Source: a virus. Taken from it: a stretch of 64,000 nt of DNA. Where the stretch lies: positions 5,850 through 69,849 of the IMG/VR virus record IMGVR_UViG_3300037321_000063. One strand, 5' to 3'. The position numbers and the translations under genes are program-made. This document shows positions 38,279-62,457 of the stretch, piece by piece. Below the pieces are notes generated by a model. It worked only from the letters and a program-made list of their open reading frames with translations, did not search any database and was not told where the DNA came from. Within the stretch, counting starts at the first letter, position 1, and every line of letters starts with the position of its first letter.

Positions 38279-38307
38279 AAAAAGCCGACTATTTAGTCGG
38301 CTTTTTT
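38279..38307. terminator. bidirectional intrinsic terminator after gp23
   Basis: AAAAAGCCGACTA-tt-TAGTCGGCTTTTTT. Confidence 0.9.
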
Positions 38308-40008
38308 AATTCTTTCGTATACATATTTTATATTTCCACAATCCCATATTCGTCTATATCCATTCATATACATATTTTCGTATTCGGTTAATTCTGGATT
38401 GAATACATCCAATAACTTACTTAACTTATGTTTTTGGAATTGCACTCTATTATTCAATACCAATGACCTCTTACCGTCCCAATAATAATATGATGGTTTG
38501 GTTACACTATCTAACAAGAATCCATTAGAATTGTATACGTTTCCCATAGATAATCGTCTATTCGCATAACTTATGATTTTATCATAACTAGAATGTTTTA
38601 ATAGTTTACTAAACCCACCAACAACAACATATCCACTTTTGGTACAAGATCTAAGCAATTCAATTCCCTCTGTGTATCTAGCAATTCCGAAAGTCATTAA
38701 GCTCACCAATTCACCATTATACATTAGACCAATTTTACTAGATGCATTAACATTACCCTGTATATGATTTTCTATACAAAACATCTTAGAATCCTTTGAG
38801 GAAACAACCACAAATTTACATTTTCTAGCATATATGCGTTTAGATAATCCTAATTTATTTCGAATCATCGACTTCCATATTTCTCGTTTGTTTGGTTCTT
38901 CCCACTCATTTTCGAATATATGAAATAGCTGTATACCTTGACCTTCACACATGTTTGTTTTTAATAAGTGTTGTTTAGACCACTTACTATCGTCTTCAAC
39001 ACAACCGCTTGAATGCCAATATAAGCCATTAAATTCTATAGCTAGGTTATGCGAAGGAATGTAAAAATCAAGCTCGTATGGATTAATTACTTTGCGCGTA
39101 GTTTCGAATTTTACACCAAGATCACTTAAAAAATCTGAAATTTCTTGCTCTTGTCTACTACGGTATAATAATTTATCTGGTGGTGAGTATATACCATAAG
39201 ATATAGACAAATAGTTTATGACGTTATCAGGTAATTCATTGTTGGGGTATTGCTCTAAAAATACACATTTATCTAAAAGTGTTTTATCAATTGTATATTT
39301 TGTAACATAAGTCGATTTGACAACGGATAACCTATAATTTTCAATACTACCGTATTTATCAATTTTGGTAGATTTAGACTTTTTGTGATGTTCCTCATTC
39401 CAATAGCTACCGTATTTTTCCTTTCTAGTGGATTTAATCTTATCTTGAATATGTGAAATCGTGCCTATATTTTCTGTACCATATCTACAAAAAGTTGTAG
39501 ATTTAATCTTATCGCTGTTCCTACTAGTACCATACTTATCAATGCCAGTATTATTTCTAATAGATTGCTGATTTGAGTTTAACGACCTACATTTAGACGA
39601 ACAGAATATATTTCCAAATTTAATAGCAATTCCACATTCTTCACAAGTAGGAAAAACACAACCGTTGTTAATAATCCTTACTCTATCAGTTAACGAATAA
39701 TCATACTCCACTCCACCTTTGAAAAAAGTCGATGGTAATTCTTTTGTTAGATTTAGTATTTCATCAACTAAGTGTATATTATTAGATAATATTATTTTAA
39801 TATTTGGATTTATTTTACCATTACTGAGAATTAAATCCTCAATAGATAAGATTACATCGTCTAGTTCTATAAATGAGTAATTTGTATATTTTTGGGAATC
39901 TAATTTTCGCTTAACAACTTTAATACCTTCACCAATAGCGGTAGACGCTTTTGATATTGATTTATATATAACCCCATAGATAGATACAGGTCTTTGTTTA
40001 TTACTCAT
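38293..40008 (-). CDS. free-standing homing endonuclease (Hef-like, PD-(D/E)XK-type)
   Basis: N-terminal VIYKSISKAS DNA-binding motif, CxxC...FCSSKC, KYG repeats, YELDFYIPSHNLAIEFNGLYWHS, C-terminal RIYARKC...GGFSKL...RIWDCG. Confidence 0.8.
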   Translation of the reverse strand: MSNKQRPVSIYGVIYKSISKASTAIGEGIKVVKRKLDSQKYTNYSFIELDDVILSIEDLILSNGKINPNIKIILSNNIHLVDEILNLTKELPSTFFKGGVEYDYSLTDRVRIINNGCVFPTCEECGIAIKFGNIFCSSKCRSLNSNQQSIRNNTGIDKYGTSRNSDKIKSTTFCRYGTENIGTISHIQDKIKSTRKEKYGSYWNEEHHKKSKSTKIDKYGSIENYRLSVVKSTYVTKYTIDKTLLDKCVFLEQYPNNELPDNVINYLSISYGIYSPPDKLLYRSRQEQEISDFLSDLGVKFETTRKVINPYELDFYIPSHNLAIEFNGLYWHSSGCVEDDSKWSKQHLLKTNMCEGQGIQLFHIFENEWEEPNKREIWKSMIRNKLGLSKRIYARKCKFVVVSSKDSKMFCIENHIQGNVNASSKIGLMYNGELVSLMTFGIARYTEGIELLRSCTKSGYVVVGGFSKLLKHSSYDKIISYANRRLSMGNVYNSNGFLLDSVTKPSYYYWDGKRSLVLNNRVQFQKHKLSKLLDVFNPELTEYENMYMNGYRRIWDCGNIKYVYERIKKAD

Positions 40009-53432: not shown

Positions 53433-53451
53433 AAATAAATATTAAATAATG

Positions 53452-53480
53452 TTTACTTTTGACAATGTTTAGTGTATAAA
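53452..53480 (+). promoter_or_regulatory. sigma70-type promoter for tRNA leader
   Basis: TTTACT-17-TATAAA; a TTGACA is also present at 53459. Confidence 0.55.
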
Positions 53481-53514
53481 ATAGAAGTGTAGAAATTAAA
53501 TAACAGGAATTAAA

Positions 53515-53595
53515 ATGACACCCAAATATAAAACGTCTAACATAAATAAATCGATAACGTGGTCGAATTATTCATGCGCGCGTGGGGTTTCTTAA
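53515..53595 (+). CDS. putative attenuator leader peptide MTPKYKTSNINKSITWSNYSCARGVS
   Basis: AGGA RBS at 53505; last codons overlap the anti-terminator strand. Confidence 0.7.
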   Translation: MTPKYKTSNINKSITWSNYSCARGVS

Positions 53596-53654
53596 ATTAA
53601 TTTATAACTTAATTATTTAAAAAAAGCCCCACAGAAATGATGGGGCTTTTTTTT
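53582..53654 (+). promoter_or_regulatory. mutually exclusive anti-terminator/terminator (attenuator)
   Basis: GTGGGGTTT (53582) pairs with AAGCCCCAC (53624); that same strand forms the terminator AAGCCCCA-loop-TGGGGCTTTTTTTT. Confidence 0.75.
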
Positions 53655-53667
53655 ATGTTTAAAATTT

Positions 53668-53739
53668 GCTGGTTTAGCTCAGTTGGTAGAGCATTTGTTT
53701 TGTAATCGAAGGGTCGAGGGTTCAAGTCCTTCAATCTAG
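53668..53739 (+). tRNA. tRNA-Thr(UGU), degenerate
   Basis: Good D arm and GTTCAAGT T arm, anticodon TGT; acceptor 3' strand broken, no CCA, runs into tRNA-Ser. Confidence 0.6.
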
Positions 53740-53826
53740 GAAGGTAGGGCGTTGTGGTACGCAACTGGTTTTGAAAGCCAGCCCAACGTGAAAACGTTGA
53801 TGGTTCGACTCCATTACTTCCCTCCA
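53739..53826 (+). tRNA. tRNA-Ser(UGA)
   Basis: CTGGT-TTTGAAA-GCCAG anticodon arm, long variable arm CAACGT-GAAA-ACGTTG, TTCGACT loop, encoded CCA. Confidence 0.85.
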
Positions 53827-53843
53827 AATTAGTTGGAATTTTG

Positions 53844-53851
53844 TATAAATA
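53844..53851 (+). promoter_or_regulatory. late promoter TATAAATA
   Basis: Exact consensus upstream of the DUF1353-like gene. Confidence 0.7.
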
Positions 53852-53880
53852 GTGGTGAATTAATTAAAAAAGGAAGTAGC

Positions 53881-54315
53881 ATGATAATCACACCACATTC
53901 AAAAAATATGTATAAGTTAGCTGAGTCGTACATGTTTCAATTAGATAATGTTAGATTTTTAATACCGAAGGGATTTGTTAGTGATGGGGCGAGTATACCC
54001 AATGCGTTTTGGAAGTTTATAGGTACGCCGTTTTCACCCGCATACATCAAAGCGGCTTTTGTACATGACTATTTAACATGTATAAATTATGATGGAAAAT
54101 CGACAGATAAGTATTTTTTAGAGTTATTGCTAAAAAATGGTGTGAGTAGAATTAAAGCAAACCTAATGTATGCGGGAGTTGTTTTATATAGAAAATATTT
54201 AGAAAAAAAGAACTTGTATAATGTAACTATGTTATGTATAGTGGTTTTATTGTTAGTCGCTGGAATAATTACACATGATCAAATCATTCAATGGGGATTA
54301 TCGTTTTTTATCTAA
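53881..54315 (+). CDS. DUF1353-like protein
   Basis: IPKGFVSDGASIP..FW...AAFVHDYL motif; C-terminal TM segment. Confidence 0.8.
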   Translation: MIITPHSKNMYKLAESYMFQLDNVRFLIPKGFVSDGASIPNAFWKFIGTPFSPAYIKAAFVHDYLTCINYDGKSTDKYFLELLLKNGVSRIKANLMYAGVVLYRKYLEKKNLYNVTMLCIVVLLLVAGIITHDQIIQWGLSFFI

Positions 54316-54703
54316 CTTTGTAGAATGTAAGGTAGTTTTAGATGGTGAGGAATATAGTTCTGTAGAACATGCCTATGTTGCGGCTAAAACTGTAGACATA
54401 GGCATTAGGAAGGAAATACAAGTATTACCCTATGCGGGGCAAGTTAAGCGATTTGGTAAAAAAATAGAATTGCGTAAAGGTTGGGATAATTTAAAGTATT
54501 CTATAATGTTTGATCTGGTTGAGCAAAAGTTTAATCAAGAACCTTATAAAAGTTTGCTATTAGAAACCAGTGGTGATATCTTCGAGGGTAATATGTGGGG
54601 TGATAGATACTGGGGCGTTGTTTGGGATGAAGACGATTCATATAGTGGTGAAAATAATTTAGGCGAGATTATTATGTTTATTCGTAGTGATCTTTCGAGA
54701 TAG
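54275..54703 (+). CDS. NADAR (YbiA-like) family protein
   Basis: FLSNF, SVEHAYVAAK, KF.Q, LL.T, WGDRYWG, GENNLG motifs. Confidence 0.9.
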   Translation: MIKSFNGDYRFLSNFVECKVVLDGEEYSSVEHAYVAAKTVDIGIRKEIQVLPYAGQVKRFGKKIELRKGWDNLKYSIMFDLVEQKFNQEPYKSLLLETSGDIFEGNMWGDRYWGVVWDEDDSYSGENNLGEIIMFIRSDLSR

Positions 54704-54710
54704 TAGTTTT

Positions 54711-54785
54711 GGTTGTTTAGCTCAGTGGTAGAGCGATAGATTGTTAATCTATGGGTCGGTGGTTCAAGTCCATCAACAACCGCCA
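54711..54785 (+). tRNA. tRNA-Asn(GUU)
   Basis: Complete cloverleaf, GGTTGTT/AACAACC acceptor, anticodon GTT, encoded CCA. Confidence 0.93.
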
Positions 54786-54790
54786 AATTT

Positions 54791-54866
54791 GGATGTGTAG
54801 ACACGTATGGATCGTGTTCGGGTTGTAACTCCGATCCGCAAGGCAACATAGGTTCGATTCCGATGA
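54791..54866 (+). pseudogene. tRNA-Tyr(GUA) lacking acceptor 3' strand; orphan T-arm at 54901-54917
   Basis: TCGGG-TTGTAAC-TCCGA arm, variable arm and GGTTCGATTCC present; no CACATCC or CCA. Confidence 0.65.
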
Positions 54867-54936
54867 AATTATGGTAAACGTAAATCCACAATGCTTAGAC
54901 ACTGGTTCGAATCCAGTTAAAATAATTAAATAAGTG

Positions 54937-60782: not shown

Positions 60783-61826
60783 ATGGAAATGATTAAATAT
60801 CAATCAATCGATCAATATAGACATTTTGTTAAAAATACTATTGCATCGGTTAGATACACCCACACGGATGAAGAAGGTCATGCTCAATTTGATAAAAATA
60901 TCGTATTGCCCACTATACCCATTTATGGAACTGTTAAATTACATGGAACTAATGCCGCAATAACTTATGATTGTGTAGACCGTATTAGATTCCAAAGTAA
61001 AAATAACATTATTACGCCCGAAAATGATAATGCGGGGTTTGCAACATATATGATCGATCATACAAAGGATTTAGAATTCTACTGTAAATCGATTATGTAT
61101 AATGCTAATGCTCATGGTATTAGGGTTTATGGTGAATGGTGCGGCGGTAACATTCAATCTAATGTAGCCATAAATGGATTACCTAAAATGTTTGTGGTAT
61201 TCGATATATTTGTATTTTTAAATAATAATTGGGTACGATTCAATGTTGATGAACATATCAGAAATGTGCAAATAATTAATTTTACTAAATTAAATATTTA
61301 CTCTATCTACAGGTTTCCAATTTATACACTTGCCGTTGATTTAGCAAATCCAACGACAATCACAGAAAAAATGGAATCATTAACTTTACAGGTTGAAAAT
61401 AATTGCCCAGTTGCGGCGAAGATAAGGGAAAATCTTAAAATTATTCTTTCACCATGTAAAACTGGTGAGGGAATTGTGTGGTCAACGTTCGATAAGAGTG
61501 AATCATTTAAAGTTAAGGGTGATAAGCATTCATCTTCTAAAGTTAAAAAATTGGTTACTATTAGCCCAGAAGTTCTAAAAAATATTGGTGAGTTTGTCGA
61601 TTATGCTTGTACAGAAAATAGACTTCAGCAAGGTTATACTGAATTATTTGGTGATTGGGAATCTGTGCCAGATATGTGCAATATTAGCTTATTTATTAAG
61701 TGGATGATGAAAGACATTGGTAAAGAGGAAACCGATGTACTAGTTGAATCAAATTTAACTATGAAACAGGTTCAATCTCAGATATTAAATAAAATTAGGA
61801 ATTTTTATACCAATAAGATAAAATAA
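60783..61826 (+). CDS. RNA ligase, Rnl2 family
   Basis: VKLHGTN, YGEWCG, FDI, GEGIVW, FKVKG motifs. Confidence 0.85.
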   Translation: MEMIKYQSIDQYRHFVKNTIASVRYTHTDEEGHAQFDKNIVLPTIPIYGTVKLHGTNAAITYDCVDRIRFQSKNNIITPENDNAGFATYMIDHTKDLEFYCKSIMYNANAHGIRVYGEWCGGNIQSNVAINGLPKMFVVFDIFVFLNNNWVRFNVDEHIRNVQIINFTKLNIYSIYRFPIYTLAVDLANPTTITEKMESLTLQVENNCPVAAKIRENLKIILSPCKTGEGIVWSTFDKSESFKVKGDKHSSSKVKKLVTISPEVLKNIGEFVDYACTENRLQQGYTELFGDWESVPDMCNISLFIKWMMKDIGKEETDVLVESNLTMKQVQSQILNKIRNFYTNKIK

Positions 61827-61962: not shown

Positions 61963-62457
61963 ATGGCTAAAACCGATGTAGAACCAAATAAGAAAAAACG
62001 AAACAATACTGTTAACAACCCCAAGTTATATGCAGACCTTATTGATTGGCATGATCGTAAGCAAGCCGCACCGGAAGGTCAAAAAGTTGAAATGGGTGAC
62101 TACACTGCTAAGTGTATTATTGAAGTTAGTAGGAAGTTAGCGTTTCATTATCGGTTTATAAACTATACTTGGAAAGATGAAATGGTTTCCGATGCCATAG
62201 AAAATTTAATTTTAGCAATGCCAAACTACAATATTGAATACGAAAACCCACATGCATATATGTCGATGGTTGCATTCAACGCATTTATCCGTAGAATTAA
62301 AAAAGAAAAGCGAGAAGTTGCCAAAAAATGTAAATACTTTGTTACAAATGTTTATGATGTTAGTCGAGAAGATGATAATAGTGGTGATATGGAAGAAACC
62401 TCATATGAGTTTTATATAAACATGATCAACAAATTAGAAGAGTATGAAGAAAAATGA
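61963..62457 (+). CDS. gp55: late transcription sigma factor gp55
   Basis: VNN..LY, FINYTWKDEMVSDAIE, NPHAY, FNAFIRRIKKEK motifs. Confidence 0.95.
   Translation: MAKTDVEPNKKKRNNTVNNPKLYADLIDWHDRKQAAPEGQKVEMGDYTAKCIIEVSRKLAFHYRFINYTWKDEMVSDAIENLILAMPNYNIEYENPHAYMSMVAFNAFIRRIKKEKREVAKKCKYFVTNVYDVSREDDNSGDMEETSYEFYINMINKLEEYEEK

What the first reader, a model, noticed from the sequence alone, without database searches (positions are those of the whole stretch)
53452..54920. Attenuator-controlled tRNA cluster whose leader peptide samples the encoded tRNA species
Seen: promoter, RBS and a 26-codon leader whose last codons (GTGGGGTTTCTTAAATTAATT) can pair with AATTATTTAAAAAAAGCCCCAC, the 5' arm of a strong terminator ending 13 nt before the first tRNA. 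Thirteen leader codons are Thr (ACA, ACG, ACG), Ser (TCT, TCG, TCG, TCA, TCT), Asn (3) or Tyr (2), matching the downstream Thr(UGU), Ser(UGA), Asn(GUU) and Tyr(GUA) genes. Known: in trp/his/thr attenuation a ribosome reaching the stop allows termination, while stalling favours the anti-terminator; host anticodon nucleases deplete tRNAs. Inference: a phage sensor that turns on replacement tRNAs only when host tRNAs are cleaved or uncharged. I do not know of this being described for a phage tRNA array, but could not search.
Basis: partly seen in the sequence, partly recalled or inferred. Interest (0 to 1): 0.88.

Follow-up and report, generated by a model that had tools for sequence, protein, structure and literature searches.

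The report
Leader-peptide attenuator before phage tRNAs
A T4-like phage from a salt lake puts a tiny translated reading frame and a switchable transcription stop directly in front of its tRNA genes, probably so that they are transcribed mainly when ribosomes are slow; a cultured Antarctic relative has the same layout, so the idea can be tested at the bench.

Summary
The anatomy is real. A promoter-like site, an AGGA ribosome site, a 26-codon frame (53515-53595) and a strong terminator lie 14 nt before tRNA-Thr and tRNA-Ser. The frame's end, stop codon included, pairs with the terminator's 5' arm better than shuffles do (4-7 of 2000).

The only syntenic relative found, Paraglaciecola phage PANV1, has the same layout with a different terminator. 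Its frame end matches that terminator (3-11 of 2000).

Codons read by the downstream tRNAs are enriched in the window's frame: 9 of 25 against 12.7% background, p=0.003. In PANV1 the enrichment is weaker (p=0.05, or 0.007 if its CAU tRNA reads ATA).

Not confirmed:
- The Tyr gene is a decayed remnant.
- The window's tRNA-Thr lacks its 3' acceptor end; sister strains carry 173 more bases there.
- tRNA-Ser has an acceptor mismatch.
- The two phages differ in what the untranslated leader RNA is predicted to do.
- There are no RNA data.

Best reading: a ribosome-dependent attenuator of a tRNA operon (about 0.55). Codon-specific sensing is less sure (about 0.35).

Six literature searches found no paper describing this control for tRNA genes. 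Unchecked notes of this scan report the same design in many other uncultured phages.

The parts
53451..53480 (+). Promoter-like site: -35-like GTTTAC (53451-53456), 18-nt spacer counted from GTTTAC (17 from the TTTACT hexamer), -10 TATAAA (53475-53480)
   Evidence: Both boxes are identical in PANV1 while the spacer has diverged. In PANV1 and in sister strains (one A fewer at 53478) the -10 reads TATAAATA, a motif over-represented in the window (30 against 16.3 expected). The consensus scan did not list this site. Promoter class is inferred.
53505..53508 (+). Shine-Dalgarno AGGA, 6 nt before the ATG
   Evidence: Read directly. Sister strains have one extra A in the spacer.
53515..53595 (+). Leader frame of 26 codons, MTPKYKTSNINKSITWSNYSCARGVS, stop TAA at 53593-53595
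   Evidence: The start codon aligns with that of the 19-codon PANV1 frame. Both substitutions seen in sister strains are synonymous.
53541..53576 (+). Hairpin inside the frame (-8.5 kcal/mol); possible RNA polymerase pause hairpin
   Evidence: No counterpart in the PANV1 folds. The pause role is inferred only.
53582..53602 (+). Region 2: 5' strand of the antiterminator, containing the last four codons and the stop codon
   Evidence: Duplex with region 3 is -15.8 kcal/mol; 5 of 2000 shuffles reach it. It is fully covered by a ribosome footprint placed at the stop codon.
53611..53633 (+). Region 3: strand shared by the antiterminator and the terminator
53619..53654 (+). Intrinsic terminator: 13+2 bp stem, GAAA loop, run of 8 U
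   Evidence: Present in both the MFE and the centroid fold; -19.0 kcal/mol.
53669..53740 (+). tRNA-Thr(UGU), 3' acceptor end lost
   Evidence: ARAGORN. Rfam scores it 45.6 bits against 73.4 for Asn. In the alignment with N4-like and G001 Thr tRNAs the terminal AGC-A-CCA is missing. Contigs of runs X3 and X4 have 173 extra letters at 53736|53737.
53739..53826 (+). tRNA-Ser(UGA) with an A3.C70 acceptor mismatch
   Evidence: ARAGORN. Not found by Rfam's tRNA model, while the PANV1 ortholog scores 32.4 bits. Sister strains carry 53820 C>T, which by my reading restores the pair.
53844..53851 (+). TATAAATA, late-promoter-like box before the DUF1353 gene
   Evidence: Conserved in PANV1. That TATAAATA is the T4 late consensus is recalled, not from a call.
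53881..54315 (+). DUF1353 protein gene
   Evidence: PF07087, 69.1 bits.
54275..54703 (+). NADAR-domain protein gene
   Evidence: PF08719, 69.7 bits.
54711..54785 (+). tRNA-Asn(GUU)
   Evidence: ARAGORN; Rfam 73.4 bits.
54791..54870 (+). Decayed tRNA-Tyr-like remnant: GUA anticodon arm (GTA at 54825-54827) and a T arm, no acceptor pairing
   Evidence: Not called at default settings. At the same position after Asn, G001 has a Tyr(GTA) tRNA called at a relaxed ARAGORN threshold.
54871..54920 (+). Second T-arm remnant
   Evidence: Read directly. A similar piece lies at the same place in PANV1.

Best explanation
This is a ribosome-dependent transcription attenuator in front of a small phage tRNA operon: tRNA-Thr, tRNA-Ser, a DUF1353 gene, a NADAR gene, then tRNA-Asn.

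Transcripts that start near 53488 carry a 26-codon frame.
- If a ribosome runs through to the stop codon, it covers region 2 (53582-53602). Region 3 then pairs with region 4 and the strong terminator stops RNA polymerase 14 nt before the first tRNA.
- If the ribosome is slow or absent, region 2 pairs with region 3 (-16.9 kcal/mol). The terminator cannot form and the tRNA operon is transcribed.

Half of the frame's codons are Thr, Ser or Asn codons, including the rare ACG and TCG. The most likely signal is therefore slow decoding of the codons that the downstream tRNAs read. That would give feedback of tRNA supply on tRNA gene transcription.

Shown: the anatomy, the alternative pairing and its statistics, the codon enrichment, and the recurrence in PANV1. 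Inferred: the promoter class, translation of the frame, its coupling to RNA polymerase, and the nature of the signal.
For: 1. No separate promoter is possible. Only 14 nt (window) and 12 nt (PANV1) separate the U-run from the first tRNA, and no + strand promoter-like site lies between 53596 and 53668. The tRNAs can therefore only be made by reading through the terminator.

2. Alternative pairing. In the nascent RNA up to 53640 the region 2:3 hairpin is the MFE, with core pairing probability 5.95 of 6. With a footprint at the stop codon it disappears and the terminator forms.

3. The pairing is unlikely by chance.
- Window: 4, 5 or 7 of 2000 shuffles reach the observed duplex energy, depending on how the arm is defined.
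- PANV1: 3 or 11 of 2000.
- Among 17 terminator-like sites of the window and 50 kb of PANV1, the two leader terminators rank 1st (1 of 300) and 3rd (12 of 300).

4. PANV1 (major capsid 78.7% identical) has a conserved promoter, an aligned ATG, a 19-codon frame, a different terminator stem (GCCGC instead of GCCCC), and a frame end (GGTGGC-TGA) complementary to that stem. The stop codon again lies inside region 2. The upstream genes differ, so the unit starts at the promoter.

5. The peptide itself is hardly conserved: about 3 of 19 positions by my reading. This fits a frame whose translation matters rather than its product.

6. Codon match in the window.
- Strict cognates 9 of 25, p=0.0026.
- ACG+TCG 4 of 25 against 1.5% background, p=0.0005.
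- {Thr, Ser, Asn} is the joint best of 1140 amino-acid triples, with 0 better and 3 tied at the top score.

7. Codon match in PANV1: 4 of 18, p=0.05; 6 of 18, p=0.007, if its CAU tRNA reads ATA.

8. Sister strains. The three one-base indels in the leader all lie outside the frame, and both substitutions inside it are synonymous. The chance of that is about 0.09.
Against: - Only one diverged relative has the leader. A more distant relative, G001, drives its 18-tRNA cluster from a promoter directly before the first tRNA, without a leader.
- In Pseudomonas phage Milchi, 21 of 22 tRNA blocks have no terminator within 45 nt upstream. The one that has (a 44-codon frame before it) shows no significant alternative pairing, 239 of 2000.
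- The regulatory codons are scattered, not in runs as in the classical leaders.
- PANV1 keeps tRNA-Ser but has a single Ser codon. It has a Thr codon but no Thr tRNA. Both frames hold three Lys codons with no tRNA-Lys in view.
- The two leaders are homologous, so their codon statistics are not independent.
- The predicted default differs. Naked window RNA forms the antiterminator. Naked PANV1 RNA pairs region 2 with its 5' UTR (-11.6 kcal/mol, about 98%) and terminates, and a ribosome stalled at codons 4-12 does not free region 2 in the model.
- The PANV1 leader as a whole folds no better than shuffles: z = -1.61; 17 of 200 do as well.
- With a different arm definition the window's pairing is only 12 of 300.
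- In this record tRNA-Thr is truncated and tRNA-Ser is mismatched, and the -10 box has an extra A. The copy in the window may therefore be a relic.
- tRNA-Asn lies 1 kb downstream, behind its own late-promoter-like box.
Confidence: 0.55

Rival explanations
1. Leaky, unregulated terminator. The hairpin ends the short transcript and any transcripts coming from the upstream genes. The tRNAs are made from a constant fraction of polymerases that read through. The frame is incidental, and the likeness of its end to the terminator's 3' arm is a leftover, for example half of an older terminator.
For: The PANV1 terminator stem (AAAGCCGCTA/TAGCGGCTTT) is a stock element. It is used at three or more other places in the two genomes: window 40029, PANV1 10797 and 11630. 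In both phages region 2 followed by a U-rich stretch looks like a terminator 3' half. Related L002 ends its gene block with a similar A-run/GCCCC/T-run hairpin. Milchi has a frame-terminator-tRNA arrangement without significant alternative pairing.
Against: It needs two independent coincidences: complementarity at the 0.2-0.6% level in two phages with different stems, each overlapping the stop codon of a frame with an aligned start. It does not explain the codon enrichment. A 13-bp stem with 8 U is a poor choice if constant expression is wanted.
Confidence: 0.22
2. The short transcript is itself the product, either a 26-residue peptide or a ~165-nt small RNA with its own terminator. The tRNAs merely lie downstream.
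For: A promoter, a ribosome site, a frame and a terminator make a complete small gene. Phages of this type carry many tiny genes; the PANV1 annotation lists several of 40-60 codons nearby.
Against: The peptide differs in length (26 against 19 residues) and in nearly all residues between the two phages. The PANV1 leader as an RNA is not unusually stable. No Rfam family reaches its threshold. The tRNAs would still have no promoter of their own.
Confidence: 0.12
3. An attenuator that senses general translation capacity or transcription-translation coupling, not particular codons. Any loss of ribosome activity opens the tRNA, NADAR and DUF1353 operon.
For: In the window the antiterminator forms whenever no ribosome covers region 2, so no particular stall site is needed. 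The codon match in PANV1 is weak. Lys and Ile codons without matching tRNA genes are as frequent as some matched ones.
Against: Strictly cognate codons, and above all the rare ACG and TCG, are enriched in the window (p=0.0026 and 0.0005). Eight of the nine strict cognates lie at codons 2-18, where a stalled ribosome leaves region 2 free.
Confidence: 0.2
4. Chance: an AT-rich spacer that happens to hold a frame and a G-rich hexamer.
For: Frames of 18-40 codons are common: 319 ATG frames in the window.
Confidence: 0.05

Closest known systems
Multivalent leader-peptide attenuators of enterobacterial amino-acid operons (thr leader for Thr+Ile, ilvGMEDA leader for Ile/Leu/Val; also trpL, hisL, pheL)
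   Same: A short translated frame near the promoter, an intrinsic terminator before the regulated genes, and an antiterminator whose 5' strand is covered by a ribosome at the stop codon. The regulatory codons cover more than one amino acid.
   Different: The regulated genes are tRNA genes, plus two protein genes, of a phage; they are not biosynthetic enzymes. The codons are scattered, not in runs. The window has no clear 1:2 hairpin, so untranslated RNA is predicted to read through, where the trp leader terminates. Rfam's Thr and Trp leader models score only 21.7-27.6 and 20.3 bits against cut-offs of 55 and 41, through the terminator alone. The properties of the classical leaders are recalled; for pheL I read passages of PMC3082878.
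T-box leaders of aminoacyl-tRNA synthetase genes
   Same: They link the state of the tRNA pool to read-through of a terminator through an antiterminator.
   Different: T-boxes bind uncharged tRNA directly and need no ribosome. No T-box match at E<=1. Here a ribosome and a frame are the sensor.
tRNA gene clusters of T4-type and other large phages (codon-usage supply; replacement of tRNAs cut by host anticodon nucleases)
   Same: A T4-like genome with tRNA genes among early-region genes, and an RNA ligase gene nearby.
   Different: I recall no attenuator for those clusters, and searches found no paper describing one. Relatives G001 and Milchi mostly drive their tRNAs without a leader. The anticodon-nuclease work is recalled, not read here.
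Leader-peptide attenuators gating phage tRNA clusters, as noted earlier in this scan on other DNA (for example e1-3411523, e1-6169757, e1-5368892, e1-5791789)
   Same: The same design: a tiny frame written in the codons of the tRNAs behind it, followed by a switchable terminator.
   Different: Those are unchecked AI notes on uncultured phages, mostly of Bacteroidota or giant phages with several large tRNA blocks. I could not see their DNA. This case is a T4-like phage with only three tRNAs, a weaker codon match, and a cultured relative.

Membership tests
Ribosome-mediated (leader-peptide) transcription attenuator | Short frame with a ribosome binding site in the 5' leader, downstream of a promoter | tested here: met
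   ATG frame at 53515-53595 with AGGA 6 nt upstream. The promoter boxes are conserved in PANV1. Translation itself is not shown.
Ribosome-mediated (leader-peptide) transcription attenuator | Intrinsic terminator between the frame and the regulated genes | tested here: met
   -19.0 kcal/mol hairpin with 8 U, 14 nt before the tRNA. PANV1: -14.2 kcal/mol, 12 nt before its tRNA.
Ribosome-mediated (leader-peptide) transcription attenuator | Mutually exclusive antiterminator whose 5' strand is masked by a ribosome at the stop codon | tested here: met
   Folds with and without a footprint. Shuffles reaching the observed pairing: 4-7 of 2000 (window), 3-11 of 2000 (PANV1). In silico only.
Ribosome-mediated (leader-peptide) transcription attenuator | Regulatory codons cognate to the product of the regulated genes, enriched in the frame | tested here: inconclusive
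   Window: 9 of 25, p=0.0026. PANV1: 4 of 18, p=0.05, or 6 of 18, p=0.007, depending on the CAU tRNA. The codons are scattered, and the Lys and Ile codons are unmatched.
Ribosome-mediated (leader-peptide) transcription attenuator | A 1:2 hairpin (pause, anti-antiterminator) that a stalled ribosome disrupts | tested here: inconclusive
   PANV1 has a 7-bp pairing of region 2 with the 5' UTR (-11.6 kcal/mol), but it lies upstream of the frame. The window has none: the 2:3 pairing forms at 99% in naked RNA.
Ribosome-mediated (leader-peptide) transcription attenuator | Read-through depends on translation of the frame in vivo | not testable with these tools
   No RNA run is listed for this DNA.
Rfam Thr_leader (RF00506) and Trp_leader (RF00513) | Score at or above the family's gathering threshold | tested here: not met
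   27.6 bits (minus strand) and 21.7 bits (plus strand) against 55; 20.3 against 41. The alignment covers the terminator only.
T-box leader | Match to the Rfam T-box model | tested here: not met
   No such match among the 11 listed at E<=1.
   Not called by ARAGORN or Rfam. At a relaxed threshold ARAGORN gives only a poor 'Thr(cgt)' model over this stretch.

The most novel reading that the evidence does not exclude
Phages carry a demand sensor for their own tRNAs. A leader peptide measures how fast ribosomes decode the codons that the phage tRNAs read, and it opens transcription of the tRNA operon only when decoding is slow. Here that operon also carries a NADAR and a DUF1353 gene. Slow decoding could come from heavy late-gene translation or from host nucleases that cut tRNAs. 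The design would then exist in a cultured T4-like phage-host pair (PANV1 and Paraglaciecola IceBac 372) as well as in the many uncultured phages noted by this scan.
Probability: 0.35. Interest if true: 0.85.

Novelty: new variant of a known kind. Interest (0 to 1): 0.6.

Why it matters
Leader-peptide attenuation is textbook for amino-acid operons. I found no paper that describes it for tRNA genes, of phages or of cells, in the searches. Those searches cover open-access papers and bioRxiv only, so older subscription papers are not covered.

If it is real, phage tRNA genes are not simply constitutive codon-usage helpers. They would be a regulated response to the state of the translation machinery. 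That bears on the open question of why phages carry tRNAs at all: supply for their own codon usage, or replacement of tRNAs destroyed by host defences.

The particular value of this case is PANV1. It is an isolated phage with a known host (PMC9239159; passages read) and it carries a homologous leader. The idea can therefore be tested with ordinary reporters and RNA end mapping.

Tried and rejected
Search for more relatives
- Exact terminator pattern in IMG/VR: 0 hits.
- tRNA-Ser pattern: 0.
- Conserved leader pattern: 0 in IMG/VR and 0 in genome contigs.
- Upstream gene: 1 locus (L002), which has no tRNAs there.
- NADAR gene: 26 loci at 50% identity or less. 24 of 26 have no tRNA or tmRNA gene, one has 3 tRNAs, one has a tmRNA, and none is syntenic.
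- DUF1353 gene: 0 loci in IMG/VR; 11 metagenome loci at 48% or less with 0 tRNAs; 0 in genome contigs; 45 cultured-phage records, of which only PANV1 exceeds 50%.
- Capsid relatives at 94% identity (L047, L048) are fragments that do not reach this locus.
- PANV1 leader against cultured phages: only PANV1 itself.
- PANV1 gp35: 0.
- This scan's index of look-alike stretches: none.
The 173 letters that sister strains carry between tRNA-Thr and tRNA-Ser therefore stay unread.

Expression
- No RNA holder is listed for this DNA.

Rejected ideas
- The TTGACA at 53459-53464 as the -35 box: only 10 nt from the -10 box, and not conserved in PANV1.
- A recurring promoter family of this exact form: 5 matches against 7.4 expected, and one regex match per genome.
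- My vague memory that E. coli tRNA-Phe genes have an attenuator: pheV of K-12 has a promoter directly before the tRNA and no leader.
- Low divergence of the leader in sister strains as a sign of selection: 3 of 236 sites against 52 of 1125 downstream, Fisher 0.017. The low-divergence block also covers the upstream gene, so it is more likely a recombination mosaic.
- Identity of the PANV1 CAU tRNA: of the 30 listed look-alikes, 3 are annotated Ile, 20 Met and 7 carry no annotation. Unresolved.

Not done
- Astolliot and nt-1 were located but their tRNA blocks were not analysed.
- Supplements of PMC9239159 were not seen.
Full report
WHAT THE WINDOW IS

The window is 64 kb of a 69.8-kb IMG/VR virus record, estimated 46% complete. 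It encodes T4-type tail sheath, portal, major head protein and helicase, a late sigma factor and an RNA ligase. The closest cultured relative is Paraglaciecola Antarctic GD virus 1 (PANV1, MW805361.1, 150,766 bp), whose major capsid protein is 78.7% identical. Its paper (PMC9239159; passages read) reports 4 tRNAs and the host Paraglaciecola IceBac 372. Six salt-lake metagenome runs hold the DNA or parts of it, and one of them may be the source.

THE OBSERVATION

The 236-nt spacer at 53433-53668 holds the following, read:
- A -35-like GTTTAC (53451-53456) and a -10 TATAAA (53475-53480).
- AGGA at 53505-53508.
- A 26-codon ATG frame at 53515-53595.
- A hairpin of 13+2 bp followed by 8 U (53619-53654), which ends 14 nt before the first tRNA.

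ARAGORN calls tRNA-Thr(UGU), tRNA-Ser(UGA) and, after a DUF1353 and a NADAR gene, tRNA-Asn(GUU). The stretch 53490-53670 folds better than all 200 shuffles (z = -3.43), and the terminator is present in both the MFE and the centroid.

The stretch 54791-54870 keeps a GUA anticodon arm and a T arm but has no acceptor stem. The more distant relative G001 has a Tyr(GTA) tRNA at that place after Asn, so the window holds a decayed copy.

THE SWITCH

The last codons and the stop codon (53582-53602) pair with the 5' arm of the terminator (53611-53632).
- The antiterminator hairpin is -16.9 kcal/mol; the terminator is -19.0.
- In the transcript up to 53640, before the 3' arm exists, the antiterminator is the MFE and its core is about 99% paired.
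- A 30-nt ribosome footprint at the stop codon removes it, and the terminator forms.
- A footprint at codons up to about 18 leaves region 2 free.

The duplex between the leader and the terminator arm is reached by 5, 4 or 7 of 2000 dinucleotide shuffles, depending on how the arm is defined. As a control on real DNA I scored 17 terminator-like sites of the window and of 50 kb of PANV1 in the same way. The two leader terminators rank 1st (1 of 300) and 3rd (12 of 300, with a shorter arm), and the typical site sits near the median of its own shuffles.

THE RELATIVE

PANV1 has the same unit.
- The two promoter boxes are identical while the spacer between them has diverged.
- The ATG is aligned, and the frame has 19 codons.
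- A terminator lies 12 nt before a tRNA with a CAU anticodon. tRNA-Ser(UGA), DUF1353, NADAR, tRNA-Asn(GUU) and the same T-arm remnants follow.
- The genes upstream of the promoter differ between the two phages, so the unit begins at the promoter.

The terminator is a different sequence (stem GCCGC against GCCCC). The end of the PANV1 frame, GGTGGC followed by TGA, is complementary to that different stem; 3 or 11 of 2000 shuffles do as well.

The peptides share almost nothing beyond the start.

PANV1 also differs in ways that matter:
- Its region 2 pairs with the 5' UTR next to the ribosome site (-11.6 kcal/mol), and in naked RNA this pairing wins at about 98%.
- Its antiterminator is weaker (-10.3 against -14.2 kcal/mol for the terminator).
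- In the model, a ribosome stalled at codons 4-12 does not free region 2.
- Its leader as a whole is not unusually stable (z = -1.61; 17 of 200 shuffles do as well).

CODONS

In 64 long frames of the window (17,546 codons), the six codons strictly read by the three anticodons (ACA, ACG, TCA, TCG, AAC, AAT) make up 12.7%. In the leader they are 9 of 25.
- Binomial tail 0.0026.
- 38 of 15,946 gene windows of 25 codons reach this count.
- 2 of 319 small ATG frames reach this fraction.

The rare ACG and TCG are 4 of 25 against 1.5% (p = 0.0005). They also lie in or next to a local hairpin (53541-53576), which could explain them in another way. {Thr, Ser, Asn} is the joint best of 1140 amino-acid triples.

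In PANV1 the match is 4 of 18 (p = 0.05). It becomes 6 of 18 (p = 0.007) if the CAU tRNA reads ATA. That tRNA resembles tRNAs of Stx phages, which 3 of the 30 listed records annotate as Ile and 20 as Met, so its identity is unresolved. Three Lys codons in each frame have no tRNA gene to match. Because the two leaders are homologous, these tests are not independent of each other.

SISTER STRAINS

Contigs of runs X3, X4 and X5 cover the leader. Between 53433 and 53668 they differ from the window in six ways:
- Three substitutions: 53489 G>A; 53526 A>G (AAA to AAG); 53577 C>T (TGC to TGT).
- Three one-base indels: 53478, 53511 and 53647.

Both changes inside the frame are synonymous, and all indels lie outside it. 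The chance of two synonymous transitions is about 0.09. No change touches the stems.

The indel at 53478 turns the -10 region into TATAAATA, as in PANV1. That octamer is over-represented in the window: 30 against 16.3 ± 4.3, and 0 of 100 shuffles reach 30. It often lies just before genes. I recall it as the T4 late-promoter consensus, so the unit may be transcribed late, or both early and late.

DAMAGE IN THIS RECORD

X3 and X4 carry 173 extra letters exactly at 53736|53737. Aligned with N4-like and G001 Thr tRNAs, the window's gene ends in AATC and then runs straight into the flank of tRNA-Ser, where the others have the last acceptor bases, the discriminator base and CCA. Three of seven acceptor pairs are lost, and Rfam gives the gene 45.6 bits against 73.4 for Asn.

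tRNA-Ser has an A3.C70 mismatch and is missed by Rfam's tRNA model. Sister strains have 53820 C>T, which by my reading restores the pair.

The copy in the window may therefore be partly a relic, or an assembly variant. The design is better judged on the sister strains and on PANV1.

HOW GENERAL IT IS

- G001 is 70% identical in the upstream gene. It has 18 tRNAs called at default settings, and its first tRNA follows a promoter directly.
- In Pseudomonas phage Milchi, 21 of 22 tRNA blocks have no terminator within 45 nt upstream. The one exception follows a 44-codon frame with 5 Phe codons before tRNA-Arg and tRNA-Phe (my count of the codon list), but its alternative pairing is not significant, 239 of 2000.
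- Among the T4-like phages I examined, the unit is thus confined to the window's lineage.
- Unchecked notes of this scan describe the same design in many other uncultured phages. I could not see that DNA and count it only as a prior.

LITERATURE

Searches for leader-peptide attenuation of phage or cellular tRNA genes found no such paper. For the papers they returned I saw listings and abstracts. I read passages of PMC2965389 and PMC3082878, and neither describes it. E. coli pheV has no leader.

VERDICT

- The anatomy and the alternative pairing are real and replicated.
- A ribosome-dependent attenuator of a phage tRNA operon is the best reading, about 0.55.
- Codon-specific sensing of the encoded tRNA species is plausible but less sure, about 0.35.
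- The link to anticodon nucleases is untested.
- Translation of the frame and regulated read-through remain to be shown. PANV1 and its host make that a feasible experiment.

Noticed in passing
window 53736-53740: tRNA-Thr(UGU) lacks its last acceptor bases, discriminator and CCA, and runs directly into tRNA-Ser. Contigs of runs X3 and X4 have 173 extra letters exactly here. This is either a deletion in this strain or an assembly collapse. What the 173 letters contain could not be read.
   Followed up: partly
window 53739-53826: tRNA-Ser(UGA) has an A3.C70 mismatch and is missed by Rfam's tRNA model, while the PANV1 ortholog scores 32.4 bits. Sister strains carry changes at 53818, 53820 and 53821 that by my reading restore the acceptor pairing.
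   Followed up: partly
window 54791-54920; L029 4335-4455; L035 7188-7272: After tRNA-Asn lie a decayed tRNA-Tyr-like piece and a second T-arm piece. Both sit at the same place in PANV1. G001 has a Tyr(GTA) tRNA there, followed by Phe and Cys. The lineage seems to have lost most of a large ancestral tRNA cluster.
   Followed up: partly
window, 30 sites, e.g. 7450, 19497, 29613, 41401, 50353, 53844, 55532: TATAAATA is over-represented (30 against 16.3 expected; 0 of 100 shuffles reach 30) and often lies just before gene starts. A late sigma factor gene is at 61963-62457. This points to T4-type late promoters.
   Followed up: partly
window 53881-54703 and 60783-61826: A DUF1353 gene and a NADAR gene sit between the tRNAs and would be co-transcribed with them. 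An RNA ligase gene (PF09414, phrog_548) lies 6 kb further on. Together this may be a module for RNA or nucleotide repair or for counter-defence. That is speculation.
   Followed up: no
window 40029; MW805361.1 10797, 11630, 22435: The same terminator stem (AAAGCCGCTA / TAGCGGCTTT) is reused at several places in both phages, including the PANV1 leader terminator.
   Followed up: no
window 38293-40008, minus strand: A 571-residue homing or HNH endonuclease gene lies directly after the major head gene. PANV1 has a shorter endonuclease gene at that place.
   Followed up: no
MW805361.1 23559-23726 (gp38): The annotated hypothetical protein gp38 of PANV1 overlaps tRNA-Asn and the tRNA remnants and is probably not a gene. 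The 19-codon leader frame is not annotated.
   Followed up: no
L029 4460-4680: PANV1 has about 200 nt of non-coding sequence after the tRNA remnants, ending in a terminator-like hairpin. It has no counterpart in the window and could be a small RNA.
   Followed up: no
PQ464597.1 about 74326-74513 (reverse complement of L056, 5988-6175): Pseudomonas phage Milchi has a 44-codon frame with 5 Phe codons (my count of the codon list). Its terminator abuts tRNA-Arg(ACG) and tRNA-Phe(GAA). Pairing of the frame with the terminator arm is not significant, 239 of 2000.
   Followed up: partly
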